A DNA stretch of 64,000 bases, from the NCBI GenBank assembly GCA_964394855.1, contig CAYMZD010000003.1:22607-86606 (forward strand), in the 5' to 3' direction. Below are positions 10,373 through 24,394 of the stretch, piece after piece; position 1 is the stretch's first letter; the number at the start of each line of letters is the position of its first letter. The DNA is from an uncultured Gammaproteobacteria bacterium. GTDB taxonomy: Bacteria; Patescibacteriota; Microgenomatia; Daviesbacterales; UBA10151. The notes beneath the pieces were generated by a model. It saw only the letters and a program-made list of their open reading frames with translations. It was not told the DNA's origin and searched no databases. The translations under genes were made by a program, and so were the position numbers.

Positions 10373-11512
10373 CTAGCGGTCACGCAAAAAGGCGGGGATT
10401 TCCAATTTATCAGCCTCTGAAAGTTCTTCCTCTCCTTTTACCTCCAACTGTTCTGAAGGAGGTTCTTCTTCCTTTTTAGTATCGTCCCAATCTTGTGGCT
10501 GCTGTGTCAAAGATGCCGAACCCATGCCCGCTCCTACATATTCCCGCAACCTTCTTCTTGATTCATCAAAACCAGTGGCAATAACAGATATCTTGACCTG
10601 ATCCAACTGATCATCTTTGATAGTGGCCCCAAAGATAATGTTAGCATCAGGATCAGCAGCTTGAGCTATAATTTGAGCAGCATCATTAACTTCGTTCATA
10701 CCCAAATCTGGACCACCCACAATATTAAAAAGTACACCTTTTGCTCCCTCAATTGAAACCTCAAGGAGCGGAGAAGCAATTGCCATACGAGCGGCAGCGG
10801 CCGCTCTATTTTCTCCACCGGCCACTCCAATACCCATTAAAGCTGAACCGGCATTATTCATAATCGTTTTCACATCAGCAAAATCGACATTGATTAAACC
10901 GGGCATGGTTATCAGATCAGAAATGCCCTGTACCCCTTGACCCAAAACAGAGTCAGCCAATTTAAAAGCCTCCTGAAGCGTCATATTTTTATCAACTACT
11001 TCTAGCAGTCTTTGGTTGGGAATAACAATCAAGGCATCAACCTTGTCTTTTAATTTCTCTATTCCCTCTTCAGCCACTATTAATCTTCTGGTGCCCTCAA
11101 AAGAAAAAGGCTTGGTGACAACAGCTACTGTTAGAGCTCCTATACTTTGGGAGATTTGGGCCAAAGTAGGTGCTGCTCCAGTACCAGTTCCACCACCCAT
11201 GCCGGCTGTGATAAACACCATATCTGCATCCTGTAGAACATCTTGCAGTTTTTGCATTGATTCTGCAGCTGCTTCCTCACCAATACTAGGATCACCACCA
11301 GAACCAAGTCCTCTAGTTAAACTTTCACCAATTTGTACCTTAGTGGGACTTTGATTTGTTAGCAATGCTTGAGCGTCTGTATTAACTGCCACAAATTCCA
11401 CACTTTGCATTTGCTGAACGGAGATCATTGAAGAAAGAGTATTCCCACCGCCACCCCCTAACCCCACTACCTTTATCTTGGCAAATCTTTGAACATCAGG
11501 TTTTATAAGCAT
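10373..11512 (-). CDS. ftsZ: Cell division GTPase FtsZ
   Basis: Tubulin signature GGGTGTGAAP, N-terminal KVVGLGGGGGN, and a C-terminal acidic/conserved peptide. Confidence 0.95.
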   Translation of the reverse strand: MLIKPDVQRFAKIKVVGLGGGGGNTLSSMISVQQMQSVEFVAVNTDAQALLTNQSPTKVQIGESLTRGLGSGGDPSIGEEAAAESMQKLQDVLQDADMVFITAGMGGGTGTGAAPTLAQISQSIGALTVAVVTKPFSFEGTRRLIVAEEGIEKLKDKVDALIVIPNQRLLEVVDKNMTLQEAFKLADSVLGQGVQGISDLITMPGLINVDFADVKTIMNNAGSALMGIGVAGGENRAAAAARMAIASPLLEVSIEGAKGVLFNIVGGPDLGMNEVNDAAQIIAQAADPDANIIFGATIKDDQLDQVKISVIATGFDESRRRLREYVGAGMGSASLTQQPQDWDDTKKEEEPPSEQLEVKGEEELSEADKLEIPAFLRDR

Positions 11513-11524
11513 AAATTTTTCCTA
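11502..11524. repeat. Direct repeat copy A (23 nt, tttataagcataaatttttccta), containing the ftsZ RBS and start codon
   Basis: An identical 23-mer recurs at 11573-11595. On the minus strand it reads TAGGAAAAATTTATGCTTATAAA, where the ATG is the ftsZ start. Confidence 0.8.
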
Positions 11525-11526
11525 AA

Positions 11527-11553
11527 TTTAAGCTTGAAAACTCTGTTTTTCAA
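11527..11553 (-). promoter_or_regulatory. Hairpin (9-bp stem GCTTGAAAA/TTTTCAAGC, 6-nt loop) between ftsA and ftsZ
   Basis: A perfect inverted repeat read directly. It is AT-rich and therefore weak. It could be a partial terminator or attenuator after ftsA, or an element modulating ftsZ translation. Confidence 0.3.
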
Positions 11554-11572
11554 GCGGTGCTTTCAAACTTCG

Positions 11573-11595
11573 TTTATAAGCATAAATTTTTCCTA
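11573..11595. repeat. Direct repeat copy B, which on the minus strand creates a 6-codon mini-ORF (MLINEV-stop) with the same RBS as ftsZ
   Basis: Exact 23/23 match to copy A, 71 nt upstream of the ftsZ start codon. On the minus strand it reads ATG CTT ATA AAC GAA GTT TGA. Confidence 0.8.
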
Positions 11596-11659
11596 TCCCA
11601 TACTCTGGACGATTCTATCATACATTTACTGTTTACTCAAGACGCAATCTTTTCTTTAG

Positions 11660-12940
11660 TTAAGGAAGCAGTGACTTAACCCAATCAATACCTTTTTGTA
11701 TCACGGATTTTAAAGGCAGACTTCTTACTAACATTGGTATTTTTAACTCTTTCCCTGAAGCTCCGCTGCTACCATAAAGAATCAAACCTGCTGCTGTAGC
11801 AAAACTAGGGGAATCAATCTCATCAACCAATCCAGATAATCCTACTGCATTGCCTATTCTAGCAGGAAAACCAATCACATATTTTGCTTGATCTAACAAA
11901 CCGACAGTCAGAGCACCCCCTCCGCAAATTACCAACCCAGAAGGGATCTGTGCCCCAAATCCACTTTTTTTAATCTCCTTTAAAACAAACTTAAATATTT
12001 CTTGCAACCTTGGTCTAATAACACCTTCAACAGCAGCTTTGGTAGAAATTTTTTGAATATCTTCAATGATACCAAGAGCTTTGACTTCAATGATATTTTC
12101 TTCCTTTTTCTTTTGGGAATCAGACTCCTCACTTAAAACCGCACTTTTAATCTGTTTACTAAGGTGTACTTTTATTTTTTCTGCTGATTCCAAGGACACT
12201 CGGAGCCCTACTGCCAAATCAGAAGTGACATGCCTAGCTCCTATGGGTATCACCGCAGAGTAGGCCACTGAACCATCAACATATATCACCACATCTGTTG
12301 TTTCCCCACCAATATCTACTAACACCACCCCCAACTCTTTTTCCGTATCAGTCAAAACAGCCAGAGACGAAGCCACCCCAGCAGACACTAGTTCAGTTAC
12401 ATCTATACCAACTTCAGAAACCACTTTTACTAAATTCCTCATGGCAGTACTGGAACCAGTAATTATATGTGTATCTGTTTCCAGTCTCACGCCCGTCATA
12501 CCAATTGGATCTCGGATACCTTCTTGACCATCAACAGTAAAAGTGCGCGGGATAACATGTAATATTTCTCGAGAAGAAGGCAGCGGTAATGCTCTGGCAG
12601 CCTCATTCACCCTTAAAACATCACTTTCTTTTATCTCTCCCTCTGGTTCAGAAACCGCCACCACCGCATGTTGATTAATGCTTTCAATTTGCGGGCCTCC
12701 CAGTGACACAAAAGCGGAAGAGATCGAATACCCCGCCATTCTTTCAGCAGCTTCAACAGATTCTGTGATTGCTTCAACAACCTCTTCAATATCAACCACC
12801 TGGCCCTTCCTAACTCCCTTGGAGGAAGTGGCAGAAACACCAATAAGATTTATTTTGCCATCTTCTTCAATATTGGCTATGAGAGTGGCTATCTTAGATG
12901 AACCTACATCTATTCCACAAACTACTTTATCCCTGGCCAC
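11660..12940 (-). CDS. ftsA: Cell division protein FtsA (actin-like ATPase)
   Basis: N-terminal GIDVGSSKIATLIA (phosphate-1), the actin-fold motifs DIGGETTD and GGGA, and a C-terminal amphipathic tail. Confidence 0.9.
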   Translation of the reverse strand: MARDKVVCGIDVGSSKIATLIANIEEDGKINLIGVSATSSKGVRKGQVVDIEEVVEAITESVEAAERMAGYSISSAFVSLGGPQIESINQHAVVAVSEPEGEIKESDVLRVNEAARALPLPSSREILHVIPRTFTVDGQEGIRDPIGMTGVRLETDTHIITGSSTAMRNLVKVVSEVGIDVTELVSAGVASSLAVLTDTEKELGVVLVDIGGETTDVVIYVDGSVAYSAVIPIGARHVTSDLAVGLRVSLESAEKIKVHLSKQIKSAVLSEESDSQKKKEENIIEVKALGIIEDIQKISTKAAVEGVIRPRLQEIFKFVLKEIKKSGFGAQIPSGLVICGGGALTVGLLDQAKYVIGFPARIGNAVGLSGLVDEIDSPSFATAAGLILYGSSGASGKELKIPMLVRSLPLKSVIQKGIDWVKSLLP

Positions 12941-12968
12941 TTATCTTAAACCCTCCTTTTTTGTAAAT

Positions 12969-13718
12969 TTATTTAGCAACATATTTAATAATAGGTCTGC
13001 TGTAGCGCAGATCTATAAACTCCACTTCTTCTTTTATTTTAGCTTCTGTAAGGATCAGTTGTAAAGATGCCAGTTGAAAATCCGGGGACGCTTCGAGAGA
13101 AAAGTATATTTTGGGGTTTGCATCAATAAATAGCATCGTTTGTGAGTAAATTTTGGCTTCTTTAATTTCCATACCCATCCTTTTCAGCTTATTTAAAATA
13201 TTGATGGCGTTTTTCACAACCCCTTCATCTAATTTAGACCCTAAAGTTAAATCCTGTGCTGTCAAGTAAATTTTTGGCACACTGATATTTGGTAAATTTT
13301 TAGAAAAAATAATGCCATCCTCGTCAACCACCAAACCGGCTGCAGAAGAGCTCTCCTCTGATTTTGAGATGATTAGTAGAGCCTGGGGAGTGCGAGTATT
13401 TGCATCAATAATTAAACCATTGGGAGGTTTTCTAGAAAGTTTCACCTCCTTTAAACATAAAAACTTTTGCCTAAGATTACTTCTCATGGCTCCTATATCA
13501 ACAAAGAAAATGTTTTTACCTGCAGCCTCTGATATTTTTTTTATATCCTCCTCACTCGTACAATCTTTTTTATCCAAATTTACCTGAATATTTTTAATTT
13601 CAAAAAATTTTGAATCGAAGAATAAATAACCATCAATAATTAAAAATAAAATTACTAGAGAGAGGCTTAATCTCCATAAATTGGAAAGCAGCTGATTGCT
13701 TTTTCTTTTTTTCACCAT
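12969..13718 (-). CDS. ftsQ: FtsQ/DivIB-like cell division protein (single N-terminal TM plus POTRA-like domain)
   Basis: Supported by position between murG and ftsA, a single TM (LSLSLVILFLIIDGYLFF), and its size. Sequence similarity is weak, so the call rests mostly on synteny. Confidence 0.55.
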   Translation of the reverse strand: MVKKRKSNQLLSNLWRLSLSLVILFLIIDGYLFFDSKFFEIKNIQVNLDKKDCTSEEDIKKISEAAGKNIFFVDIGAMRSNLRQKFLCLKEVKLSRKPPNGLIIDANTRTPQALLIISKSEESSSAAGLVVDEDGIIFSKNLPNISVPKIYLTAQDLTLGSKLDEGVVKNAINILNKLKRMGMEIKEAKIYSQTMLFIDANPKIYFSLEASPDFQLASLQLILTEAKIKEEVEFIDLRYSRPIIKYVAK

Positions 13719-13745
13719 AGCTTAATTATATAATATGTCTTATGG

Positions 13746-14828
13746 CTAAAAGGTGTGGTCTTTTAAGATGATGGTCTCCAGGGCCAGTCTTTTGGCAGCA
13801 TCAGGGATAATCAACTTTTTGGCCGCTTTAGCAGCCGATTTATATTGATCTAAATTTTTAATCATGTCTTGGATATTTTTATAAAGTGTCTCCGGAGAAA
13901 GTTTGGATTGAGGCAAAACTTTGACCATACCAATCGCTTTAAAAAAAAGAGCATTTTTTTGTTGTTCATCTTGATAAAGATAAGGTACTGGTATTAAAAG
14001 TGCTGGTTTCTCCAGAAAGGCTAGTTCAGTCAGAGTGTTAATACCAGCTCTAGATACCACTAAATCAGATTGAACCATTACTTGACCCATCTCTTCAATA
14101 AATTTTTTTACTTCATACTTATCACAGGATCTGGCTTTTAATCTTTCAAAATCCTTAAATTTTGAATCTCCAGTTAGATGAATAATTGTGGCGATTTTGG
14201 TCAGCTTCTCCAGGCTTTCTTCAACTGCCAAATTAATCACATGGGAGCCCTGATTACCACCGGTAATTAAAATACGGGGCAACCCCCCTTTCTCTCGCAT
14301 CATGCTCGCAGCCTGTTTGATCTCACCTCGTATCGGATTACCAGTCAACACTACTTTCTCCTTGCCAAAAGATTTATTTTCACTAAATGCAATAGCTACC
14401 TTATCCGCAAAAAAACTACTTATTTTATTGGCCAACCCCGACACCAAAGTTTGATCGTGAATGATAATAGGGATGGAAAAAAACCAACTCACCACTACTA
14501 TTGGTACTGCCACATAGCCTCCGAAAGATAACACCACATCGGGTTTCTCCTGTAAAATTATCCACCAAGCTTGAACCAAACCAATGGGAATTTTAAGAAG
14601 TGCGGGGATAGTATAGATGGTGAACGTTCTCTGCAGTCTACCTGCTATAATGGGGATAAACTTTACCCCCAGTTTTGGTAAAACCTGTGATTCAACAGAT
14701 TGACTAGGGTCACCTTCACGGGTAGTTTTTCTCCCCACATAGATAATTTGTAGATTTTTATACTTCTTGAGCTCTTCAATAACTGCCAAAGCAGTAGTAA
14801 AATGAGCTCCTGTCATTAGTATTTTCAT
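13746..14828 (-). CDS. murG: Undecaprenyldiphospho-muramoylpentapeptide beta-N-acetylglucosaminyltransferase MurG
   Basis: Start MKILMTGAHFTTALAV (G-loop). C-terminal GGNQGSHVIN matches the MurG GGSQGA motif region. GT28 architecture. Start chosen at M13 of the track ORF. Confidence 0.85.
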   Translation of the reverse strand: MKILMTGAHFTTALAVIEELKKYKNLQIIYVGRKTTREGDPSQSVESQVLPKLGVKFIPIIAGRLQRTFTIYTIPALLKIPIGLVQAWWIILQEKPDVVLSFGGYVAVPIVVVSWFFSIPIIIHDQTLVSGLANKISSFFADKVAIAFSENKSFGKEKVVLTGNPIRGEIKQAASMMREKGGLPRILITGGNQGSHVINLAVEESLEKLTKIATIIHLTGDSKFKDFERLKARSCDKYEVKKFIEEMGQVMVQSDLVVSRAGINTLTELAFLEKPALLIPVPYLYQDEQQKNALFFKAIGMVKVLPQSKLSPETLYKNIQDMIKNLDQYKSAAKAAKKLIIPDAAKRLALETIILKDHTF

Positions 14829-14829
14829 C

Positions 14830-15921
14830 TTATGTTTGTTTCGAGATGTTAAATAATATCCCAATTGCAGCCAAATTTACCACCAGAGCAGAACCACCAT
14901 AGGAGATAAATGGTAGGGGAACACCTGTCAAGGGTAAGAGGGAGGAGATAGCCCCCAGATTAACTATGGCCTGTATCCCCAGCCACAGAGTTAATCCCGA
15001 AGCTAAAATTTTACCAAATTGATCAGTGGTCTTGTCTGCTATTTTAAAACCTCTAATGACAAGAGCAATAAAAAGAGCAATTAAGAGCATAGAACCTAAA
15101 AATCCCAGCTCTTCTCCAATTACAGCAAAAATCGAATCAGTTGTGACTTCGGGAAGATAATATTTTTGTCTAGACTGTCCCAATCCCAGTCCAAAAAGTC
15201 CACCTGTACCAAGGGCAATTAAAATCTGTGAAATATGGTAGGAAAATCCTTGTGGATCTGAAAAAGGGTCTAAAAAAGCCAAGACTCTTTTTCTGCGATA
15301 TTCTGAAAAAATTACCAGTAATAAAAAAGCTGCCACAGCTACTGGCAAGCTTAAAACTATCCTCCATAGTGATCCTCCTGCAATAATATATAAGCCCAAT
15401 GAAGTAGCCACAAAGACAGCAGTCGAACCCAAATCTTTTTGCAAAAAGCCCATGATAAATCCGACTATTAAAATCAGTCCCAACAAAGGTTTAAGCCTGG
15501 CTCCTTTATCAAAAATAGCCGAAAGCCAAAGCACAGCTGATAATTTAAAAACCTCTGCTGGTTGAATAGTCAAAAAATTAAGATTCAACCATCTGTGAGC
15601 TCCTCCCGCTGATGTACCTATTCCCGGTATAAAAACCGCCAGAAGAAGCAGTACTGAACCTGCTAATGCCAAAAAAGAAATACTTCTTAATTTATGGTAA
15701 TCAAAATTGGCAAAAAAAATTGCCACCAACACCCCCAAAACCATCCAAATGAGCTGCCATCTAATGTAGTAAAAACTATCACCAAAATCCCGATAAGCTT
15801 GTATAACAGAAGCATCATAAACAGATACCAAACCAAAAATGACCAACATGGAAACTACGAGGATAAGCGGGATATCAAAAGTTCTCTTTTGTGGATTTAG
15901 GTACGTTTTATTGAGCCTCAT
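14830..15921 (-). CDS. ftsW: SEDS-family lipid II flippase/polymerase FtsW
   Basis: Polytopic with C-terminal SEDS motifs. Located between mraY and murG. The ATG at 15921-15919 makes an ATGA overlap with the mraY stop. The track's GTG at 16008 would overlap mraY by 91 nt. Confidence 0.8.
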   Translation of the reverse strand: MRLNKTYLNPQKRTFDIPLILVVSMLVIFGLVSVYDASVIQAYRDFGDSFYYIRWQLIWMVLGVLVAIFFANFDYHKLRSISFLALAGSVLLLLAVFIPGIGTSAGGAHRWLNLNFLTIQPAEVFKLSAVLWLSAIFDKGARLKPLLGLILIVGFIMGFLQKDLGSTAVFVATSLGLYIIAGGSLWRIVLSLPVAVAAFLLLVIFSEYRRKRVLAFLDPFSDPQGFSYHISQILIALGTGGLFGLGLGQSRQKYYLPEVTTDSIFAVIGEELGFLGSMLLIALFIALVIRGFKIADKTTDQFGKILASGLTLWLGIQAIVNLGAISSLLPLTGVPLPFISYGGSALVVNLAAIGILFNISKQT

Positions 15922-16949
15922 CGCGAAAGTAAAGCTAACCAGAGCCCAAAAATAGCAAACATTGCTCCAGCCAACCAAAATCTGGTTACTATTTTTGGTT
16001 CTTCCCACCCGATATATTTAAAATACATATGTATTGGGGCTACAGGGAAAGCTTTTCTCCTCAAAAATCTTTTGGAAATCATCTGGATGGCAGAACTTAA
16101 GACAATTATGACATAAACTCCACCAATAATTGTCAATGCTAAAACTTTACCTGTTAAAAGTCCCACCACGGCCAGTGTAGCCCCAAAGGCTAAAGCACCA
16201 GCGTCTCCCAAATAGATTCTGGCTGGCCACACATTAAAATAAAGATAAGCAAATAAAGCTCCAATCCAGATACCAATAAAACTAGCCAGTGTTAAATTAA
16301 GTGAAGTTGTCGCCAGAGCAAGTAGAGCAAATAGACAAATAACTAAAAGCCCAGTTGATAATCCATCTAAACCATCAGAGATATTATAGGCATTGGAGAA
16401 GGAGACAATGATAAATGCTGCTATCGGAATATACCAAACCCCAATAATAAAATTTCCCAAACCAGATATATAAATATTATTAAGTCCAATCATTCTATAA
16501 AGCATAAATGCCACCAAAAAAGCAAAAATTATCTGCAAGATTAGGATAAACCTTCCTTTTATCCCCGCATATTTTCCACTAAAAGCTGTAAAGATTTTTC
16601 TGATATCATCCATCAGTCCTATGATAGCAAATGAAATAAAAGTGAATAAGATAATAAATAAATAGTCCGGACCGTCTAAACTATTATAACTATAAAAAGA
16701 AGTATTGATGATAGTTAAAATAGTAATAAGTATTATTAGTAGTATTCCTCCTCCCACTGGAGTATCCACGTCTTTCCCAGCTAGCAGCTTATTATGAATA
16801 GGGGTGGTGCTGTCATCATAGCCTTTGGGAATTGGTTTTTTATACTTCCTTCTTAAAATAAAAAGCAAATTAATAAAAGGAACCATAAAAAAACTGGTCA
16901 CCAAAAAAGAAAGCAGAACCAGTCCTAAAAGTTGACTTAATGGATTCAT
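15918..16949 (-). CDS. mraY: Phospho-N-acetylmuramoyl-pentapeptide transferase MraY
   Basis: NAYNISDGLDGL (MraY DGxDGL motif), ten TM helices, and an ATGA overlap with the upstream gene. Confidence 0.9.
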   Translation of the reverse strand: MNPLSQLLGLVLLSFLVTSFFMVPFINLLFILRRKYKKPIPKGYDDSTTPIHNKLLAGKDVDTPVGGGILLIILITILTIINTSFYSYNSLDGPDYLFIILFTFISFAIIGLMDDIRKIFTAFSGKYAGIKGRFILILQIIFAFLVAFMLYRMIGLNNIYISGLGNFIIGVWYIPIAAFIIVSFSNAYNISDGLDGLSTGLLVICLFALLALATTSLNLTLASFIGIWIGALFAYLYFNVWPARIYLGDAGALAFGATLAVVGLLTGKVLALTIIGGVYVIIVLSSAIQMISKRFLRRKAFPVAPIHMYFKYIGWEEPKIVTRFWLAGAMFAIFGLWLALLSR

Positions 16950-18022
16950 ATTTTTTTAATAATTCGTTTGACAACCTCGTCTAATCTAACTGACTTTGCT
17001 CCTTTAACCAAACAAACATCTCCTTTTACCAACACCTTTAAAAGTTTAGACACCATTTGCGGATTTTGCAAATTAGCTTCCATCTTTTCTGTTAAAAAAC
17101 CTAGTCTTTTTAACTCATCAGCTATAATATTGGCTGCTCCTACTCCCAAAAAAACTAGATCTACTTTTTCTCTATATATTTTTTGAGCTATTTTTCTGTG
17201 TAAGATCTCTGTATCTATATTGTCATCTTTCATCTCTCCAAAACATAAAATCCGTCTTCTGACAGATAACTGCTGCAGCGTATCAATCGCACCTTCAACA
17301 GATAAATAGGTGCCCTCACCCAGATCATCCAAAACCACAGCACCATTAAATCCTGGTAAAACTTGCAGTTCATTTTCCTGTTGGGGAATTTTCTCCAGGT
17401 AATTCTTAATAGCAATCAGTGAAATTCCTTCGTTTAAAGCCAAGGCACTGGCTGCTAAAATTGAGTAAATATGATGTTCACCTAAAATAGGAAGTTTTAT
17501 TTTTACCCTCTCTACTCCATAATTAATTTCAAACGAGGAATTAAAATCCTCAATTTTTAGATTACTAAGCCAAACCTGGCAATTTTCACTATCCTGACCA
17601 AAATAAATAACTCTGGCTTTTGAGTTATCAGCTAATTTTCTCACTGCCAAATCATCATAATTTAAAATTACCAACCCATCATTTGATAATGTACTCGAAA
17701 TTCTATTTATTTCACTGATTATCTTCTTACCAGCTAAAGTCAAACTACTCACAATAATAACATTGGGAGTAATGTTCTCCCATGAATTATCCATATGGTC
17801 TTTCTTTTGATTTAAATCCAAGATTATTCTTCCCTTTTTAGGTCTTATAGCCCACAATTTAATTCCTGGTTTGGTAGTAATGACTGAATATTTTTTAGAC
17901 AGAATGTGCTGCAGCGTCAGTATGATAGTTTTGCTAAAATTACCGACCACACCAATAAAAACTTCTTGGGGAATAATTTTGATATATTGTTTGCCAATAA
18001 AAGATAAAAATGGAATTTCCAA
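16946..18022 (-). CDS. Mur ligase family protein, MurF-like by position, with no N-terminal domain and a degenerate P-loop
   Basis: Central-domain end ILGEHHIYSILAASALAL and the C-terminal domain (GEGTYLSVEGAIDTL ... LGVGAANIIADEL) look Mur-ligase-like. The ATP P-loop reads GVVGNFSKT instead of the usual GxTGTNGKTT. Confidence 0.5.
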   Translation of the reverse strand: MEIPFLSFIGKQYIKIIPQEVFIGVVGNFSKTIILTLQHILSKKYSVITTKPGIKLWAIRPKKGRIILDLNQKKDHMDNSWENITPNVIIVSSLTLAGKKIISEINRISSTLSNDGLVILNYDDLAVRKLADNSKARVIYFGQDSENCQVWLSNLKIEDFNSSFEINYGVERVKIKLPILGEHHIYSILAASALALNEGISLIAIKNYLEKIPQQENELQVLPGFNGAVVLDDLGEGTYLSVEGAIDTLQQLSVRRRILCFGEMKDDNIDTEILHRKIAQKIYREKVDLVFLGVGAANIIADELKRLGFLTEKMEANLQNPQMVSKLLKVLVKGDVCLVKGAKSVRLDEVVKRIIKKI

Positions 18023-18023
18023 A

Positions 18024-19283
18024 TTAAGCCTCTCTTTTTATATTAACACCCAATTTAGTAAGTTTTTCGACAACGTTTTCATAACCTCTTTCTATTAACT
18101 CTGCTTTGTGAATAGTGCTTTTTCCGGATGCCACCGCTGCCGCCAATACTAAAGCCATACCAGCCCTTATATCAGGACTTTCTAAATCGCGTCCTTTAAG
18201 TTTAGATGGACCATACACTAAAACTCGGTGGGGATCGGCAATAGTAATATCTGCCCCCATGGCAATTAACTTATCAACAAAAAACATTCTACTTTCATAT
18301 ATCCAGTCATGGCATAAAGTGATGCCTTTACTTTGAGTAGCCAAAACAATGGTAGGACTCATCATATCAGTGGGAAAACCAGGCCAAAGACCTGTTACAA
18401 TTTTCTTCGGGGAAGTGAGTTTTTGCCCAGAGAAAATAAATTTACCATCCTTAAATTCAGCCTTAAGGCCAAATCTCTTAAGAGGTTCTATAACAGGATC
18501 AGCATCTATCCCACTTGCGCCACTTACCACAACTTTTCCAGAAGTCATGGCTGCGGCAATAGCATAGACGCCCATTTCCAGATGATCCCCAGATAAGCAA
18601 AATTTCGTTCCAGACAGTTTTTTAACCCCCTCTATCATCAAGTTTGTTGTTCCCACCCCCGAAATATTTGCACCCATAGATATTAAAAGTCGGCACAAAT
18701 CAACAACATGCGGATCAGCAGCGCAGTTTCTGATATGGACTTTACCAGGATATAAAACAGAGGCTAAAATTAAATTTTCCGTACCAGTCACAGAAGTTAT
18801 GTTTTGGAAAATATGGCAAATTCTCTTTGACATGGATTTTTGGGGATAGCCAACAGTAAAATACAAATCGTCTTGAGTGATCTTTGCTCCAAGAGTAGCA
18901 AAACCATCAAGATGAACTTCAAAACTTCTTCTGCCAATGATATCTCCTCCGGGATAATGGAACTTGACCCTTCCAAGTCTTGACAGTAACGGCCCGACCA
19001 AAACAATTGAACCCCTTAGCTTTACTACCAAATCATCAGGCAGGCTTGATTTTAAATTGGCTGATTTTAAACTAACTGCTCCGTTTCTCCTTAAAACTTT
19101 TACCCCAATTTTTTCTAGAATTTGTAGCAAAATATCCGTGTCTTTAATCTCGGGGATATTTTCTAAAATAACCTCATCTTCTGTTAAAAGTGCTGCCGCC
19201 ATACAGGGAAAAATGGAATTTTTATTACCAGATATTGTTACTTTCCCCAGTAGGGAATTGCCACCTTCAATAATATATTTCAT
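18024..19283 (-). CDS. murA: UDP-N-acetylglucosamine 1-carboxyvinyltransferase MurA
   Basis: MKYIIEGGNSLLGKVTISGNKNSIFPCMAAAL is the canonical MurA N-terminus. Two-domain EPT fold, 419 aa. Confidence 0.9.
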   Translation of the reverse strand: MKYIIEGGNSLLGKVTISGNKNSIFPCMAAALLTEDEVILENIPEIKDTDILLQILEKIGVKVLRRNGAVSLKSANLKSSLPDDLVVKLRGSIVLVGPLLSRLGRVKFHYPGGDIIGRRSFEVHLDGFATLGAKITQDDLYFTVGYPQKSMSKRICHIFQNITSVTGTENLILASVLYPGKVHIRNCAADPHVVDLCRLLISMGANISGVGTTNLMIEGVKKLSGTKFCLSGDHLEMGVYAIAAAMTSGKVVVSGASGIDADPVIEPLKRFGLKAEFKDGKFIFSGQKLTSPKKIVTGLWPGFPTDMMSPTIVLATQSKGITLCHDWIYESRMFFVDKLIAMGADITIADPHRVLVYGPSKLKGRDLESPDIRAGMALVLAAAVASGKSTIHKAELIERGYENVVEKLTKLGVNIKREA

Positions 19284-19284
19284 G

Positions 19285-19863
19285 TTAAATTCTCGCCTTA
19301 AATCGAAATACAGCAGATAAAATCAAGTGCTTACTTAACTTAAGATCCTCGGGGGCGATCTGTTCAATTTCTCCATTTTCTAAGACTTTGATAGTTTTTA
19401 CTTTTGACTGAAGTAATTTATTTAAAAATAAATTCCCTCCAACCGTACCCGGAAGTCCCTTAATTTCATCAGTTTGTAAACCTTGCTTATTTAAAAATTC
19501 CCATAGCCTGTTAATACTTACTCCTGAATCAACCTCTATCAAAGCTTCATCAACTCCTAAAGATTTTTGAGCCACCTTACCTTTAATACCCACTATATTC
19601 ATGTGTTGAGTTCTGTTTTTAACCACCAGTCCATCAAAACCTTGATCAGCAATAACAATCTTACTGCCAGAACCTATCACCAAATAAGGAACAGTCAGTT
19701 GTTCTGCCATTTGGACAATTTTAGCAAGTTCATGAGTAGTAAAAGCCACGAAAAAAATTTTAGATGGACCACCCAAAGCTACTGTTGTATGGTTGGCCAG
19801 GGGTTCGTCCATTTTGAAACGATCCCTGCCAAATGAACTAATAAGTAAGTTTAGTTTATCCAT
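19285..19863 (-). CDS. murB: UDP-N-acetylenolpyruvoylglucosamine reductase MurB, short form: FAD-binding domain only, 192 aa
   Basis: LANHTTVALGGPSKIFFVAFT, GSGSKIVIADQGFDGLVV and GLPGTVGGNLFLN match the MurB FAD-binding half. The ORF ends 1 nt before the murA start, so the roughly 100-aa C-terminal substrate-binding part is absent. Confidence 0.6.
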   Translation of the reverse strand: MDKLNLLISSFGRDRFKMDEPLANHTTVALGGPSKIFFVAFTTHELAKIVQMAEQLTVPYLVIGSGSKIVIADQGFDGLVVKNRTQHMNIVGIKGKVAQKSLGVDEALIEVDSGVSINRLWEFLNKQGLQTDEIKGLPGTVGGNLFLNKLLQSKVKTIKVLENGEIEQIAPEDLKLSKHLILSAVFRFKARI

Positions 19864-21070
19864 TCTTCAACGCATCCTCACAAGCTTTTCTATCAGACCA
19901 AGGCAACTCTTTCTTGCCATCTAAATTAATAGACTTTTCATGACCTTTACCAAAAATTCCCACCGTATCACCCTTTTTAGCTAAAATATTAATGGCAAAA
20001 TCAATGGCTTTTTTTCTATCATCAATTATATAAAAATTCACCCCCTCTTTGGCTCCGGCTTTTTTTGCCCCTTTTTTAATTTGCTGGTTGATAGCTTTAA
20101 GTTCTCCTCTTGGATCAACAGCGGTCAGAATTACCATATCAGAAAGTTGCTGGGCTATTTTTCCCATCATCCACCGCTTTTTAATATCCCTCTGGCCTTC
20201 TGCCCCGGTAATGGTAATCAGCTTCCCTGATGGAGTTTGTGTTCGCAGGGCCATAAGAGCTTTTTCTAAACCATTAGGTGTGTGAGCGAAATCAATGATA
20301 ATCCTTAAACCATTATTATTTTTTACCCCTTCCATTCTACCTGTTAACCCTTTAAATTGCAGCAGGGATTTGACTACCCGTCTTTGATCAACCCCCAAAT
20401 AAGTAGTGGTTGCCAAAGCAGCTAGGGCATTTTCAATATTGTAATCTCCTGGTACTTGTAACTTAATCCTTAAATCTTGTTGATTAACATCACCTCTTTC
20501 TAACCCAAAGGTAATTATCTTAGCCAATAACTTACCCGATCGTTTAACATATTGGTTAAGGTTGCAATTGATAATGGCTACCCTTACACCCTTCAATAGT
20601 TTTAATTTAGTTTTGATGTAACTGGTTTTGGTCCGATGATAATCTAGGTGTTCATGAGTAATATTGGTAATCACTCCCACCTTAAATTTCACCCCCCAAA
20701 ACCTGAATTGATCCAAGCCGTGAGAGGTTACTTCCAAAATTAAATATTCATCTCCATGATCTAATGCTTGCTTGGTCAATTTCTGTACCACAAAAGGATC
20801 AGGAGAGGTCACATGAAAGCCTGTATCGTAGGATTTTCCAGCAATTTCCGCATTGATAGTTGAAACTAGAGAAACCTTTTTACCAGCATCCTTTAAAATC
20901 TGGTAAATCATATTAACTGTAGTAGTTTTACCATCTGTACCGGTCACCCCGATTACTGCTAAATCTTTTGACGGGAAGCCATAAAAAATATTGGCCAAAA
21001 AGGCCTTGGGCAAATGCCAAAAATAATTTATCATCCATTGAGATAAAAACCGCCTTAATAATTTTTTCAT
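19856..21070 (-). CDS. murE: Mur ligase, MurE-like (UDP-MurNAc-L-Ala-D-Glu:diamino acid ligase), lacking the N-terminal domain
   Basis: P-loop GVTGTDGKTTT sits only 37 aa from the N-terminus. C-terminal TAVDPRGE (DNPR-like, DAP-type specificity motif) and GKGHE are present. Confidence 0.65.
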   Translation of the reverse strand: MKKLLRRFLSQWMINYFWHLPKAFLANIFYGFPSKDLAVIGVTGTDGKTTTVNMIYQILKDAGKKVSLVSTINAEIAGKSYDTGFHVTSPDPFVVQKLTKQALDHGDEYLILEVTSHGLDQFRFWGVKFKVGVITNITHEHLDYHRTKTSYIKTKLKLLKGVRVAIINCNLNQYVKRSGKLLAKIITFGLERGDVNQQDLRIKLQVPGDYNIENALAALATTTYLGVDQRRVVKSLLQFKGLTGRMEGVKNNNGLRIIIDFAHTPNGLEKALMALRTQTPSGKLITITGAEGQRDIKKRWMMGKIAQQLSDMVILTAVDPRGELKAINQQIKKGAKKAGAKEGVNFYIIDDRKKAIDFAINILAKKGDTVGIFGKGHEKSINLDGKKELPWSDRKACEDALKNG

Positions 21071-21084
21071 TGAAGCTAATTATA

Positions 21085-22788
21085 TCATTGTGCCTCTGTT
21101 GGAGCTATTCTGTAATAAGTAAAAAGCTCTTTGGCTATTTCAAAAAAGGTGGGAGCGGCTGTTTCTGAACCAAAGATTGAAACCGAGGGTTGGTTATAAA
21201 GCACTAAGATGACAAACTTGGGACTATCGGCCGGGGCAAATCCCACAAATGAGGCGATGGTTTTATTGGGATCATAATGACCAGCCACGGGAATTTGGGC
21301 AGTCCCAGTTTTACCAGCAATCTTAAAACCTTTTGGCTTGGCCCATTTAGCCTCACCCTCATCCACAGCCTTTACCATCATCTCTGTTAAAACTTTAGCA
21401 GCTTCTTCGCTGATAACTCTTCTGATAAATTTGGGCTTAATTTCAAATCTTTTATTGTCATCTTCTATGGCTTTTACTACTTGAGGTTGCATCAAATTCC
21501 CACCACTAGCTAGTGAAGCCACTGCAGCCACCATTTGAATGGGAGTAACTGCAATTCCTTGACCAAATGAGCTTGTAGCCAAATCTATCTCTCTCCAGCT
21601 TTCTTTAGATCGAAGATTTGGTGAAAACTCATCTTGTAAATCAATACCTGTTTCTTGACCAAATCCAAAATCTACCAGATAAGAATAAAGTTTATCCAAT
21701 CCTAACTTTCTTGATACAAAAACCATACCGGTATTATCAGAATGTATGATAGTTTCCTCCATGGTAGTTTCTGGATAATACTTATTATTCCAAGTTCTAA
21801 TAGTAAAACCACCAATTTGTACCGCTTCAGCGCAACTATCACATTTTGTATCTGGCTTGATAATATGTTCGTTTAAGGCAGCCGCCATCACCAAAACCTT
21901 AAAAATGGAACCAGGCTCAAAACTATCAGCCACAATGGAATTTTTATAATATTCCTTGGCAAACTGGCTGAAATTAGCTGGATCATAATTAGGATAGGTA
22001 GCCAAAGCCAACACAGCTCCTGTTTTAGGATCTAAAACCACAGCCGAAGCACCTTTAGCCTCATACTTTTCAAATCCTTTTCTTAAAGCCTTCTCTACAA
22101 TATATTGCACAGCTCTATCAATATTTAGTATTAAATTTTTACCATCTTTGCCAAAATTGCCAAATGATTGACCAATTAAAATAGGCAGCCCAGCTGCATC
22201 TTTTTCCTGTCTGATGTTACCTGCCATGCCCTTGAGTTCTCCGTTATAAAAACCTTCTAAACCAAAATATCCCGTATCTTCACCTTTGGAGTTACTGGCC
22301 ACAAATCCCAGCAAATGGGCCGCACTGGAGCCTTCTGGGTAAAAACGACTATTTTCTTTTTCAAAGCCTAATCCTTTTATTTTAAGGCTCTCTATTTTCT
22401 TTTTTATTTCCAGCTCAACATTTCTTTGAAGAACCACCCAATATAAATCCTCTGACAATTTATCTTTAAGCTCTCTGCTCAAGCTTAATTCTTCTTCTTC
22501 TTCTTCTGTCAAGATTTTAGCTAATTTTGTGGCCACATTAGATTTATCCTCCTCTTTAAATAATTTTGGTAAACCATAAAGAAGGTATGTCGGCTTTGAA
22601 GAAACTAAAATGAAATTATCTGAAAATAAAATATCGCCTCTTTTGGCTTGAGTTTTTAAATCTTGAAAATGTTGGTTTTCAGCTTTGGCAGACAGTTCAT
22701 CTGCCATAACTACCTGCCAGTAAAAAAGGCGCGCTAAAACAGTTAAAAAGAGTAGAATCAGGAAAATCCTAGTAAATTTAATACGCAT
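21085..22788 (-). CDS. ftsI: Penicillin-binding protein, class B transpeptidase (FtsI/PBP3-like)
   Basis: N-terminal TM, SxxK (SIFK), SxN (HSDN) and KTG (KTGTAQ). Confidence 0.85.
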   Translation of the reverse strand: MRIKFTRIFLILLFLTVLARLFYWQVVMADELSAKAENQHFQDLKTQAKRGDILFSDNFILVSSKPTYLLYGLPKLFKEEDKSNVATKLAKILTEEEEEELSLSRELKDKLSEDLYWVVLQRNVELEIKKKIESLKIKGLGFEKENSRFYPEGSSAAHLLGFVASNSKGEDTGYFGLEGFYNGELKGMAGNIRQEKDAAGLPILIGQSFGNFGKDGKNLILNIDRAVQYIVEKALRKGFEKYEAKGASAVVLDPKTGAVLALATYPNYDPANFSQFAKEYYKNSIVADSFEPGSIFKVLVMAAALNEHIIKPDTKCDSCAEAVQIGGFTIRTWNNKYYPETTMEETIIHSDNTGMVFVSRKLGLDKLYSYLVDFGFGQETGIDLQDEFSPNLRSKESWREIDLATSSFGQGIAVTPIQMVAAVASLASGGNLMQPQVVKAIEDDNKRFEIKPKFIRRVISEEAAKVLTEMMVKAVDEGEAKWAKPKGFKIAGKTGTAQIPVAGHYDPNKTIASFVGFAPADSPKFVILVLYNQPSVSIFGSETAAPTFFEIAKELFTYYRIAPTEAQ

Positions 22789-23051
22789 TAACGAATATAT
22801 TGTATGATTTTGGGAGCAGTAAATCCAATATCAGCAGATTGGCTAGCTATTCTGGTAATGGCAGCGGCAGAAGCTATCTCATTTTCTAACAGCTGATTCT
22901 CCAAATTTAAGTTTTGTCGGAGATTTTCTATATCATTCATCTGTTCTCCCAAACTCACTGTAGTGTGAGAAACCCAGATTTCTATTACCACCAGTACCAA
23001 TAAAAAAAAGCTGATAAAAATTATTATTTTTTTGCTTCCCCAAATGCTCAT
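22788..23051 (-). CDS. ftsL: FtsL/DivIC-like septal protein (single TM plus coiled coil)
   Basis: 87 aa, with TM IIIFISFFLLVLVVIEIWV followed by a leucine-rich heptad region. Position between rsmH and ftsI. ATGA overlap with rsmH. Confidence 0.5.
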   Translation of the reverse strand: MSIWGSKKIIIFISFFLLVLVVIEIWVSHTTVSLGEQMNDIENLRQNLNLENQLLENEIASAAAITRIASQSADIGFTAPKIIQYIR

Positions 23052-23917
23052 ATCTTGGCAAAAATTCTTAATTTGGCCGATCTTGACCCTTGATTGGCCA
23101 CCATCTCCTTTGTAGAAGGAGTGATCGGCTTTTTGGTTAAAATCTCTCCTAGCTTAAGATCTTGCCAAGATTTAAATTGCTTTTTAACTATTCTATCTTC
23201 CAGAGAATGAAAACTAATGACCACTAGCTTACCACTTGTTTTTAACAAATCAAGTGCTTGCGGCAGCGCTTCTTCCAGCGCATTTAGTTCATCATTAACA
23301 GCAATACGCAGAGCTTGAAACACTTTAGTAGCTGGATGGATTTTTCCATGCCTACCTTTAATCCTTTCTACGATACTGGCTAACTCTGTAGTTTTGTGTA
23401 TTGGTTTCACCGAACGGGCGAGAACCACAGCAGCAGAAATGGCTTTAGCAAATCCTTCTTCACCCAGTTTAGTAAATAGTTCATATAACTCTCCTTTATT
23501 TAAACCATTAACAAGATCCATTGCTTTGACTGGTAATTTCAAATCCATCCTCATATCTAATGGTCCATTTTTAGAAAAGGAAAAACCTCTTTTGGAACTG
23601 TCCAGTTGCCAAGTTGATACTCCCAAGTCAAATAAAATACCAGCAAATTTTTTGTTGACTAATTTTTTCAGGTTTCTAAAGTTCCCTGCTACTTGTTTAA
23701 ACCTCTGACCCCCAAGTCTTAACTTTCTAAATCTGGTGCTAGTTCTTGCTACCGCCTCCAGGTCTATATCTAAACCAATAACGTTTCCTTTACTCTTTAA
23801 GATTTCCAGTGAGTGGCCGCCATCTCCCAAAGTAGCATCCAAATACCACCTACCAGGTTTTATATCTAGAGCTTGCACGACCTCTTTCAGAAGAACGGGC
23901 TTATGATAATCTACCAT
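23048..23917 (-). CDS. rsmH: 16S rRNA (cytosine1402-N4)-methyltransferase RsmH (MraW)
   Basis: MVDYHKPVLLKEVVQAL ... DATLGDGGHS is the RsmH signature. Start chosen at M23 of the track ORF, which leaves a 17-nt overlap with mraZ. Confidence 0.85.
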   Translation of the reverse strand: MVDYHKPVLLKEVVQALDIKPGRWYLDATLGDGGHSLEILKSKGNVIGLDIDLEAVARTSTRFRKLRLGGQRFKQVAGNFRNLKKLVNKKFAGILFDLGVSTWQLDSSKRGFSFSKNGPLDMRMDLKLPVKAMDLVNGLNKGELYELFTKLGEEGFAKAISAAVVLARSVKPIHKTTELASIVERIKGRHGKIHPATKVFQALRIAVNDELNALEEALPQALDLLKTSGKLVVISFHSLEDRIVKKQFKSWQDLKLGEILTKKPITPSTKEMVANQGSRSAKLRIFAKI

Positions 23918-24311
23918 ACCTTTGTTTGATTTTAGCAAGTTCTCTACCCCATAATCTAGCGTCCCAGATTTCAAAATGATCACCAGCGCCTACTATGACC
24001 GCTTCTTTCTTCACCCGCGCGAAAGTCAGCAGGGCCGACGGAACCACAAACCTACCTTGAGTGTCTAACTCCACTGACTCGCTACCTGAAAACAAATATC
24101 TTCTTAAATTTCTGGCCCGTTCTTCTGTGGCAGAAACCTCTATTTGCTTTTTGGCTAATTCCTCAAAACCCTCTTTACTAAAACCCCAGATACAACCCTC
24201 AAAACCACGACTTAGGACAATCTCTTTACCAGCTAGCTCATCTCTTAACTTCCTGGGTAGAATTAACCTTCCCTTACCTGTAAAATTGGTGTAATATTCG
24301 CCCAAAAACAT
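23901..24311 (-). CDS. mraZ: Transcriptional regulator MraZ
   Basis: MFLGEYYTNFTGKGRLILPRKLRDEL shows the duplicated MraZ/SpoVT-AbrB fold. The start was moved to M4, where the RBS GGAAGG lies 9 nt upstream. The track ATG at 24320 directly abuts the RBS. Confidence 0.85.
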   Translation of the reverse strand: MFLGEYYTNFTGKGRLILPRKLRDELAGKEIVLSRGFEGCIWGFSKEGFEELAKKQIEVSATEERARNLRRYLFSGSESVELDTQGRFVVPSALLTFARVKKEAVIVGAGDHFEIWDARLWGRELAKIKQRYGRLS

Positions 24312-24340
24312 GAAGGACATCCTTCCTGATTGGGCAGATT

Positions 24341-24394
24341 CACCTTAAATCACCATCTATAACCATTTTGAACCATACTAAAGCTACTTGTCAA
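24341..24394 (-). promoter_or_regulatory. Putative mraZ/dcw promoter-operator: four 10-bp-phased direct repeats plus an adjacent TTGACA
   Basis: Plus strand 24341-24376 reads CACCTTaaat CACCATctat AACCATtttg AACCATacta. On the minus strand these are ATGGTT, ATGGTT, ATGGTG, AAGGTG at exact 10-bp spacing. A TTGACA lies at 24389-24394 (minus). This is the classic MraZ-box layout of a GTGG-type repeat at helical-turn periodicity. Confidence 0.4.

What the first reader, a model, noticed from the sequence alone, without database searches (positions are those of the whole stretch)
24341..24394. Four 10-bp-phased ATGGT(T/G) direct repeats upstream of mraZ: a candidate MraZ operator
On the plus strand the motif [C/A]ACC[A/T]T recurs at exactly 24341, 24351, 24361 and 24371. 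On the coding strand it reads ATGGTT-n4-ATGGTT-n4-ATGGTG-n4-AAGGTG, immediately downstream of a TTGACA hexamer and about 20-30 nt upstream of the mraZ start. MraZ proteins bind arrays of short GTGG/TGGG-type direct repeats spaced one helical turn apart in their own promoter. This window appears to preserve that autoregulatory architecture.
Basis: partly seen in the sequence, partly recalled or inferred. Interest (0 to 1): 0.5.

Follow-up and report, generated by a model that had tools for sequence, protein, structure and literature searches.

The report
MraZ operator at dcw promoter

Summary
On the minus strand, ATGGTT, ATGGTT, ATGGTG and AAGGTG lie exactly 10 bp apart (24376-24341), after TTGACA (24394-24389) and 29 nt before the mraZ start (24311).

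It is not chance. About 35 non-redundant Microgenomates relatives keep the array at a fixed distance from TTGACA, while the neighbouring columns are randomised. In 212 kb of relatives' DNA, the three-box pattern occurs only upstream of mraZ.

The geometry (hexamer plus a 4-nt spacer) equals the B. subtilis MraZ-binding repeats GTGG[A/T]G. Four boxes match the M. genitalium and Burkholderia operators. The array overlaps a predicted promoter (TTGACA-18-CAAAAT), so autorepression of the 14-gene mraZ-to-ftsZ cluster is the likely mechanism. Binding itself is untested.

There is a clade-specific twist. The first box base is A instead of the canonical G. The first DXXXR motif of the protein has lost its Asp (TGKGR), while R15, D82 and R86 are retained.

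This is a new member of a known kind, of modest interest.

The parts
24389..24394 (-). -35 hexamer TTGACA of the predicted dcw (Pmra-like) promoter
   Evidence: Invariant in 30 of 30 anchored relatives at about 2 bits per column. Called by the promoter scan with an 18-nt spacer, 10 of 12 matches. E. coli Pmra also uses TTGACA.
24371..24376 (-). Box 1, ATGGTT, inside the -35/-10 spacer
   Evidence: In relatives it reads AAAATGG-n-G, with ATGG at 1.8-2 bits and the fifth base free.
24365..24370 (-). -10-like hexamer CAAAAT, overlapping the 5' flank of box 2 by 2 nt
   Evidence: In relatives it is (G/C)AAAAT, with AAAAT invariant, at a 17- or 18-nt spacer. It is retained as AAAAAT in the more distant L109, where the TATAGAT block is not. 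The transcription start is inferred near 24357-24359 and is not measured.
24361..24366 (-). Box 2, ATGGTT
   Evidence: Part of the nearly invariant 20-nt block AAAATGGTTATAGATGGTGA.
24351..24356 (-). Box 3, ATGGTG; the best-conserved box, matching the B. subtilis consensus GTGG[A/T]G at 5 of 6 positions
   Evidence: ATGGTGA is invariant in 30 of 30 relatives. B. subtilis consensus.
24341..24346 (-). Box 4, AAGGTG (degenerate 5' half)
   Evidence: GGTGA scores 1.4-1.8 bits in relatives while the five bases before it vary. In about half of the relatives it also forms the 5' arm of a leader hairpin whose flanks covary while GGT stays fixed.
24332..24337 (-). CTGCCC, a conserved leader motif of unknown role (TTCTGCCCAGAAAG in relatives)
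   Evidence: Present in about 35 Daviesbacteria-type leaders, 14-67 nt before the start codon. Absent from the other CPR group. Only marginally above chance elsewhere in the window (27 matches against 17.8 expected at up to 2 mismatches; 3 of 100 shuffles reach 27).
24312..24325 (-). Hairpin GAAGG-ATGT-CCTTC that pairs the Shine-Dalgarno-like sequence, ending 1 nt before the start codon
   Evidence: Flagged as a stem-loop. The stem covaries in relatives: GAGG/CCTC, ATGG/CCAT, GAGA/TCTC, GGCT/AGCC, GAAA/TTTC.
23901..24311 (-). mraZ (136 aa); start taken as the ATG at 24311 (MFLGEYY...)
   Evidence: Pfam MraZ, two stretches, 2.2e-29. PDB 1N0E at 4e-21 and M. genitalium 9QLR at 1e-18, with K13, R15, D82 and R86 aligned and D11 replaced by T.
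10373..23917 (-). Rest of the co-directional dcw cluster, the presumed regulated operon: rsmH, an ftsL-like ORF, ftsI-type PBP, murE-like, FAD-binding (murB-like) fragment, murA-like, Mur ligase, mraY, ftsW, murG, ftsQ, ftsA, ftsZ
   Evidence: Pfam assignments; ORF map. Co-transcription is inferred from the tight same-strand packing only.

Best explanation
The four 10-bp-phased boxes are the operator of MraZ, laid over the core promoter of the dcw cluster of a Daviesbacteria-like (Microgenomates/CPR) bacterium.

Proposed mechanism:
- R15 and R86 read the TGG core.
- The four subunits bind cooperatively.
- The array runs from the -35/-10 spacer (box 1), past the -10 (box 2), across the predicted start site and early leader (boxes 3-4).
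- Bound MraZ therefore excludes or traps RNA polymerase and represses mraZ and the downstream division and cell-wall genes. This is negative autoregulation.

Shown: the repeats, their phase, their conservation, their exclusivity to mraZ upstream regions, the identity of the protein, and the retention of its base-contacting arginines.

Inferred: binding, the promoter and start-site assignment, the sign of regulation, and the extent of the operon.
For: - Sequence and phase are as described, and the site is rare in an unbiased period scan.
- Phylogenetic footprint: TTGACA, AAAATGG, AAAATGGTTATAGATGGTGA and GGTGA score 1.4-2 bits, while columns 7-14 and those beyond 55 score about 0-0.3 bits. Inter-box spacing never varies. 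The distance to the start codon ranges from 53 to more than 146 nt, so the array is tied to the promoter and not to the coding sequence.
- Specificity: all 66 three-box matches in 212 kb of CPR loci lie less than 260 nt upstream of mraZ on its strand. The window has no other two-box ATGGTK or three-box TGGTK array.
- Match to known operators:
  - B. subtilis: GTGG[A/T]G three times with 4-nt spacers.
  - M. genitalium: four GTG(G/T) boxes with 6-nt spacers, each bound by one subunit, acting as a repressor, with the start site inside box 1.
  - Burkholderia: four repeats downstream of the -10, overlapping the start site.
  - E. coli: GTGGG-n5 three times between the -10 and the ATG.
- A more distant CPR group has ATGG-ATGG-GTGG-(G/A)TGG in the same frame after TTGACA, so ATGG and GTGG occupy equivalent box positions.
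- Protein: MraZ family, with K13, R15, D82 and R86 conserved.
- The method recovers canonical GTGG arrays in Planctomycetia, Bacillales and others.
Against: - There are no binding or expression data for any CPR MraZ.
- All four boxes lack the first G of the 'GTG' core that the literature calls conserved across distant bacteria. Box 4 is AAGG, and boxes 1-2 end in T.
- The first DXXXR motif lacks Asp (TGKGR). Residue 13, which contacts bases in M. genitalium, varies in the clade (K, Q, H, R or T).
- Box 4 also takes part in a covarying leader hairpin in relatives.
- The relatives form one clade, so their agreement is not 35 independent observations.
Confidence: 0.82

Rival explanations
1. MraZ binds the array but activates transcription, or acts both ways, instead of repressing.
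For: The -10-like hexamer (CAAAAT or GAAAAT, with an 18-nt spacer) is weak, as expected for a promoter that needs help. In M. gallisepticum, the filamentation seen in the MraZ study cited there came with increased FtsZ (as reported).
Against: Boxes 2-4 cover the -10 edge, the predicted start site and the early leader, which is repressor geometry. E. coli, B. subtilis and M. genitalium MraZ all repress through comparably placed boxes.
Confidence: 0.08
2. The conserved block is only the core promoter (-35, -10, discriminator, start site) recognised by the housekeeping sigma factor. The GG periodicity is incidental.
For: The 20-nt invariant block includes non-box spacer bases and the -10-like hexamer. 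TTGACA is invariant.
Against: Box 1 (in the spacer) and box 4 (about +15 to +20) are conserved outside the sigma-contacted positions. The conserved GG doublets fall exactly every 10 bp. The boxes match GTGG[A/T]G at 5 of 6 positions. A sister CPR group carries canonical GTGG in the same frame.
Confidence: 0.05
3. The repeats are bound by another regulator that recognises direct repeats, for example an OmpR/PhoB-type response regulator of cell-wall genes, and not by MraZ.
For: Winged-helix response regulators also use direct repeats at a 10-11-bp period (general knowledge). No binding data exist.
Against: The array occurs only upstream of mraZ in 212 kb of relatives' DNA. It matches the MraZ consensus and the four-box stoichiometry. 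Response regulators usually use two half-sites, not four.
Confidence: 0.03
4. The element acts at the RNA level as a structured 5' leader, or through DNA curvature from phased A-tracts, not as a protein operator.
For: Box 4 is the 5' arm of a covarying hairpin in about half of the relatives. The spacers are A/T-rich and in phase.
Against: Boxes 1-2 lie upstream of the predicted start site. The window itself lacks the box-4 hairpin. In the hairpins the flanks covary but GGT does not, which indicates an extra constraint. The 45-49 spacer alternates between ATTTA and AAAAG, so A-tract identity is not what is conserved. Rfam finds nothing.
Confidence: 0.02

Closest known systems
Bacillus subtilis MraZ-binding repeats (MBRs) in Pmra: GTGG[A/T]G three times with 4-nt spacers (bioRxiv 10.1101/2022.02.09.479790)
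   Same: Identical hexamer-plus-4-nt geometry (10-bp period). Box 3 here (ATGGTG) equals GTGGTG at 5 of 6 positions. Located in the mra promoter, on the coding strand, with the same orientation. Repression there requires both arginines, R15 and R86, which are conserved here.
   Different: Four boxes here instead of three. The first base is A, not G, in every box. The protein's first DXXXR motif lacks Asp.
Mycoplasma genitalium four-box MraZ operator, cryo-EM complexes 9QLR, 9QLG and 9SX6 (PMC12957436); Mollicutes consensus AAAGTG[T/G]
   Same: Four boxes at a 10-bp period, each read by one subunit through K13, R15 and R86. A-rich 5' flanks. The start site falls inside the array. Autorepression.
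   Different: The core there is GTG(T/G); here it is ATGG. D11 is replaced by T. The oligomeric state of the CPR protein is unknown.
Escherichia coli Pmra direct repeats (Eraso et al. 2014; K-12 sequence read)
   Same: TTGACA -35, then GTGGG-n5 three times (plus a degenerate fourth, GGGGT) in 10-bp phase before the mraZ ATG. Repressor.
   Different: The E. coli array starts about 8 nt after the -10 and fills the leader. Here the array begins about 20 bp further upstream, inside the -35/-10 spacer.
Burkholderia cenocepacia PmraBc site: four 7-nt repeats with 3-nt spacers (PMC7761207)
   Same: Four repeats at a 10-bp period, overlapping the start site, bound by MraZ in EMSA.
   Different: Entirely downstream of the -10, with a GTG core and a 100-nt leader.

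Membership tests
MraZ protein family (PF02381; duplicated SpoVT/AbrB-like domains) | Two MraZ/SpoVT-AbrB-type repeats detectable by profile | tested here: met
   Pfam MraZ at 2.2e-29 with two stretches. Full-length alignment to 1N0E (4e-21) and 9QLR (1e-18).
MraZ protein family | Two DXXXR DNA-binding motifs (D11-x-K13-x-R15 and D82-x-x-x-R86) | tested here: inconclusive
   The second motif, D-T-Q-G-R, is intact. The first is T-G-K-G-R: R15 and K13 are present and Asp11 is replaced by Thr. The whole ATGG-box clade has (S/T)-G-x-G-R. The base-contacting arginines are met; the strict motif is not.
MraZ protein family | First gene of the dcw cluster, followed by rsmH (mraW) | tested here: met
   mraZ, rsmH, ftsL-like, PBP, Mur ligases, mraY, ftsW, murG, ftsQ, ftsA and ftsZ are all on the minus strand.
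MraZ operator (MraZ boxes / MBRs) | Three or four direct repeats at a 10-11-bp period on the coding strand upstream of mraZ | tested here: met
   Four boxes at exactly 10 bp. The spacing is invariant in about 34 relatives.
MraZ operator (MraZ boxes / MBRs) | Box core GTG(G/T) | tested here: not met
   The boxes read ATGG, ATGG, ATGG and AAGG. None of 34 loci in this clade has a GTG[GT] chain, and 31 of 34 have an ATGG chain. The TG(G/T) triplet contacted in the cryo-EM structure is kept in boxes 1-3. Sister CPR loci mix ATGG and GTGG in the same frame. It therefore works like an MraZ box with a variant first base.
MraZ operator (MraZ boxes / MBRs) | Overlaps or abuts the dcw promoter or transcription start | tested here: inconclusive
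   The array overlaps a predicted TTGACA-18-CAAAAT promoter, which is conserved in relatives. There is no experimental start site.
MraZ operator (MraZ boxes / MBRs) | Unique or near-unique multi-box occurrence in the genome, at mraZ | tested here: met
   It is the only two-box ATGGTK and three-box TGGTK array in 64 kb. There are no off-target three-box sites in 212 kb of relatives. One looser three-box [AG]TGG match lies antisense inside an ORF at 58832-58855. The whole genome is not available.
MraZ operator (MraZ boxes / MBRs) | Specific binding by the cognate MraZ and box-dependent regulation | not testable with these tools
   This needs EMSA, footprinting or reporter assays.

The most novel reading that the evidence does not exclude
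The Daviesbacteria-type lineage has re-specified the MraZ-operator pair. Position 1 of every box changed from G to A. In parallel, the first recognition loop lost its Asp (D11 to S/T) and relaxed residue 13. Loop 1 would then no longer read the first base, and recognition would rest on R15 and R86 reading TGG. That would be a natural specificity variant, useful for working out a recognition code for MraZ.

The correlation is 31 of 34 against 1 of 86 loci, and it extends to two deeper T11 lineages, L116 and L117.

It is weakened by three points:
- L112 has Asp11 but ATGG boxes.
- Asp-loop CPR proteins have ATGG in two of their four boxes.
- The clade is essentially a single evolutionary event.
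Probability: 0.3. Interest if true: 0.45.

Novelty: new member of a known kind. Interest (0 to 1): 0.3.

Why it matters
It extends the MraZ autoregulatory circuit, by strong comparative evidence, to the candidate phyla radiation. Almost no transcription-factor/operator pairs are assigned in that group. It also gives an explicit promoter model (TTGACA, a 17-18-nt spacer, GAAAAT) for the dcw cluster of Microgenomates.

The A-for-G box variant, together with the altered first DXXXR motif, offers a natural test of the contacts seen in the 2026 M. genitalium cryo-EM structures.

It does not change how MraZ regulation is understood.

Tried and rejected
- **Box register.** I first anchored on GGT and considered GGTG as the core, containing GTG at positions 3-5. 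I rejected this in favour of the hexamer (A/G)TGG(T/A)(G/T). De novo phased-word counts pick ATGG. The fifth base of box 1 is free. The hexamer aligns with B. subtilis GTGG[A/T]G. The sister CPR group has GTGG in the ATGG frame.
- **A possible 'box 0'.** AAAATGGGGG lies just upstream of the -35. It is 26 bp out of phase with box 1, and it reads CCC instead of GGG in most relatives. It is more likely an A/T-rich UP-like block followed by a G/C-rich run.
- **TATAGAT as the -10.** It lies 27 nt from TTGACA, has no conserved -35 of its own, and is not kept in L109, whereas AAAAAT is.
- **The ATG at 24320 as the start codon.** It sits in the loop of the SD hairpin, with no spacing from the SD, and it is absent in L086, L091, L104, L011 and L010.
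- **Known RNA family.** Rfam gives only a sub-threshold ToxI match on the opposite strand inside mraZ (E = 0.6).
- **Eraso et al. 2014 (PMC4010979).** Not held. The E. coli facts come from citing papers and from the K-12 sequence.
- **A wider regulon within the window.** None was found. The 58855 match is antisense and intragenic.
- **Searches not run.** The sequence matches to solved MraZ structures were already decisive.

Full report
**1. What is there**

Read on the minus strand, window 24394-24309 is:

cTTGACA-agtagctttagt-ATGGTT-caaa-ATGGTT-atag-ATGGTG-attt-AAGGTG-aatCTGCCCaatcag-GAAGG-atgt-CCTTC-ATG

- The four hexamers start exactly 10 bp apart, at 24376, 24366, 24356 and 24346.
- The gene that follows is mraZ (Pfam PF02381, 2.2e-29, two repeats).
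- It aligns over its full length with the solved MraZ of M. pneumoniae (1N0E, 4e-21) and M. genitalium (9QLR, 1e-18).
- The longest ORF begins at 24320. The family-typical N-terminus MFLGEY and a properly spaced Shine-Dalgarno sequence point to the ATG at 24311.
- mraZ heads a compact, co-directional cluster running down to 10373: rsmH, an ftsL-like ORF, an ftsI-type PBP, Mur ligases, murA-like, mraY, ftsW, murG, ftsQ, ftsA and ftsZ.
- The MraZ protein is 60-70% identical to proteins of Candidatus Daviesbacteria and other Microgenomates MAGs. The window therefore comes from a CPR/Patescibacteria genome.

**2. Is it more than chance?**

It was defined after the fact, so I ran a motif-free test.
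- The test scanned for any hexamer repeated four times at any period from 7 to 15, with at least 21 of 24 column matches.
- It gives two loci at period 10, this one and an A-rich TAAAAG run at 51481. About 0.15 are expected per simulated window.
- On its own that is suggestive. Falling in the 93-nt gap before mraZ makes it about 2e-4.

**3. Conservation**

- I collected 46 non-redundant upstream regions from genome and metagenome contigs encoding MraZ at 43% identity or more.
- When anchored on TTGACA, not on the repeats, 30 share the same register and 4 more differ by one base in the TTGACA-to-box-1 distance.

Information content per column:

| Columns (TTGACA start = 0) | Sequence | Conservation |
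|---|---|---|
| 0-6 | TTGACAA | about 2 bits |
| 7-14 | next eight bases | about 0.1-0.8 bits |
| 15-21 | AAAATGG (box 1) | 1.6-2 bits |
| 22-24 | three bases | loosely constrained |
| 25-44 | AAAATGGTTATAGATGGTGA | nearly invariant |
| 45-49 | five A/T- or purine-rich bases | variable |
| 50-54 | GGTGA (box 4) | 1.4-1.8 bits |
| beyond 55 | | about 0 bits, apart from an isolated C at column 60 |

- Inter-box spacing never changes.
- The distance from the array to the start codon varies from 53 to more than 146 nt, because hairpin modules are inserted in the leader.
- The array is therefore tied to the promoter and not to the coding sequence.
- The pattern [AG]TGG-n6, three times, occurs 66 times in 212 kb of CPR loci (both strands), in 50 of 56 loci. 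Every occurrence is within 260 nt upstream of mraZ on its strand.
- In the window there is no other two-box ATGGTK or three-box TGGTK array.
- One looser three-box match at 58832-58855 is antisense inside a 674-aa ORF and is probably chance.

**4. Comparison with known operators**

- B. subtilis MraZ-binding repeats are three GTGG[A/T]G hexamers with 4-nt spacers. Repression requires them and both R15 and R86.
- M. genitalium has four GTG(G/T) boxes with 6-nt spacers. In the cryo-EM structures each box is read in the major groove by one subunit.
  - K13, R15 and R86 contact the TG(T/G) bases.
  - D11 and D82 hold the arginines in place.
  - The start site lies inside box 1, and MraZ represses.
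- Burkholderia has four 7-nt repeats with 3-nt spacers, overlapping the start site.
- E. coli K-12 reads TTGACA-17-TAAACT-cctttca-GTGGGaaattGTGGGgcaaaGTGGGaataaGGGGTgaggctggcATG.

The window's array has the same period, orientation and hexamer-plus-4 layout, and it has four boxes. Box 3 (ATGGTG) matches GTGGTG at five of six positions. The difference is the first base, which is A instead of G.

The register is supported in two ways:
- De novo counts of phased 4-mers pick ATGG in 30 of 34 loci of this clade, and pick GTGG, GTGT or AGTG in other phyla.
- A more distant CPR group (L012-L016, L063, L110) carries ATGG-ATGG-GTGG-(G/A)TGG in the same frame after TTGACA. ATGG and GTGG are therefore alternative occupants of equivalent box positions.

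The TG(G/T) triplet contacted in the structure is retained in boxes 1-3.

**5. The protein side**

- Against M. genitalium MraZ, K13, R15, D82 and R86 are conserved, but D11 is Thr.
- Across the fetched loci, every member of the ATGG-box clade has F-(S/T)-G-x-G-R in loop 1, with residue 13 being K, Q, H, R or T.
- The other CPR group and all Firmicutes, Actinobacteria and Planctomycetes sampled keep D-x-(K/R)-x-R.

| Chain of 3 or more boxes | S/T-loop loci | Asp-loop loci |
|---|---|---|
| ATGG | 31 of 34 | 1 of 86 |
| GTG[GT] | 0 of 34 | 15 of 86 |

(Counts.)

- Two deeper T11 lineages, L116 and L117, also use ATGG boxes.
- In the structure, residue 13 of loop 1 is the side chain nearest the first box position, so a coupled change is plausible.
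- It remains an inference, for three reasons:
  - The clade is essentially one evolutionary event.
  - L112 has Asp11 with ATGG boxes.
  - Asp-loop CPR proteins tolerate ATGG in two of their boxes.

**6. Mechanism**

- The scan finds TTGACA-18-CAAAAT (10 of 12 matches).
- Relatives keep TTGACA and (G/C)AAAAT with a 17- or 18-nt spacer.
- L109 keeps AAAAAT while losing the TATAGAT block. This argues that AAAAT, not TATAGAT, is the -10.
- On this model:
  - Box 1 lies in the spacer.
  - Box 2 abuts the -10.
  - The start site falls near 24357-24359.
  - Boxes 3-4 lie in the first 20 nt of the leader.
- In about half of the relatives, box 4 is the 5' arm of a covarying hairpin. This fits box 4 being transcribed.
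- This is repressor geometry, as in E. coli, B. subtilis, Burkholderia and M. genitalium.
- The most likely function is cooperative binding of four MraZ subunits, occluding the promoter and giving negative autoregulation of the dcw cluster.
- An activator role cannot be excluded without experiments.

**7. Rivals**

- **Pure core-promoter reading.** It does not explain the conservation of boxes 1 and 4, or the exact 10-bp recurrence of GG.
- **A different direct-repeat regulator.** It does not explain the exclusive association with mraZ or the match to the MraZ consensus.
- **RNA-level or curvature readings.** They fail for several reasons:
  - Boxes 1-2 precede the predicted start site.
  - The window lacks the box-4 hairpin.
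  - GGT stays fixed while the neighbouring stem positions covary.
  - The A/T spacer switches between ATTTA and AAAAG.
- Rfam has no match.

**8. Novelty**

- MraZ box arrays are well known and have been predicted across many phyla.
- The held literature contains no description for CPR/Patescibacteria.
- I class this as a new member of a known kind, with a clade-specific one-base core variant and an altered first DXXXR motif.
Binding remains to be shown.

**9. Seen in passing**

- A leader with a conserved CTGCCC(A)GAAAG motif.
- A covarying hairpin that pairs the SD directly before the start codon.
- Variable hairpin inserts in relatives' leaders.
- Probable leaderless arrangements in L116 and L117, where the last box is the start codon.

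Noticed in passing
window 24312-24325 (minus strand): The hairpin GAAGG-ATGT-CCTTC pairs the Shine-Dalgarno-like sequence and ends 1 nt before the mraZ start codon. The stem covaries across relatives (GAGG/CCTC, ATGG/CCAT, GAGA/TCTC, GGCT/AGCC, GAAA/TTTC). This suggests translational damping of MraZ on top of transcriptional autoregulation.
   Followed up: partly
window 24332-24337 (minus strand); relatives such as L003, L009 and L097: The motif CTGCCC (TTCTGCCCAGAAAG in most relatives) is conserved in about 35 Daviesbacteria-type mraZ leaders, 14-67 nt before the start codon. It is absent from the other CPR group and only marginally above chance elsewhere in the window (27 matches against 17.8 expected at up to 2 mismatches). 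It can form a UUCU-GCCC-AGAA mini-hairpin. Its function is unknown.
   Followed up: partly
L009, L011, L085, L086, L093, L097, L098, L105 and others, just after box 4: Box 4 plus the downstream bases form a hairpin of the type RRGGU-GAAA-ACCYY, with a GNRA-like loop. The flanking pairs show compensatory changes (G-C, A-U, C-G) while GGU is fixed. The window and L088 lack this hairpin.
   Followed up: partly
window 24267-24281 (MraZ residues 11-15) and all ATGG-box relatives: The first DXXXR motif of MraZ is (S/T)-G-x-G-R throughout this clade. Asp11 is lost and residue 13 is K, Q, H, R or T. The second motif stays D-x-Q-G-R.
   Followed up: yes
L116 and L117 (MraZ 38-43% identical): In these deeper lineages the last ATGG box is itself the start codon (ATGGTG...). 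This implies a very short or absent leader and an operator that overlaps translation initiation.
   Followed up: no
L001 leader; also L005, L007, L009: Extra hairpin modules are inserted between box 4, the CTGCCC motif and the SD hairpin. They lengthen the leader to more than 140 nt. In L001 the module gtcccgaatgatcgggac occurs twice. They may be small mobile or repeat elements.
   Followed up: no
window 58832-58855 (minus strand): A second loose three-box match, ATGGgagtatGTGGttattaATGG, lies antisense inside the 674-aa ORF 58009-60033. It is probably chance and was not examined in relatives.
   Followed up: partly
window 51481-51520: An A-rich run with TAAAAG-like words at 10-bp spacing was the only other hit of the unbiased period-10 scan. 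It looks like low-complexity sequence.
   Followed up: no
window 16946-19863 (minus strand): The dcw cluster contains a murA-like gene (EPSP_synthase family) and a short 192-aa ORF with an FAD_binding_4 domain (murB-like fragment) between murE-like and the next Mur ligase. This gene order is unusual compared with E. coli or B. subtilis.
   Followed up: no
window 24404-25279 (minus strand): The upstream co-directional 291-aa ORF has no Pfam match. Its stop codon lies only 9 nt before the -35 hexamer and overlaps the conserved A/T-rich block, with no terminator-like site in between. Read-through into the dcw promoter is possible.
   Followed up: no
L109, about 60-110 nt upstream of its TTGACA: A tandem run of CCTCTGTA units (cctctgtacctctgtacctctgta...) lies just upstream of the mraZ promoter.
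   Followed up: no
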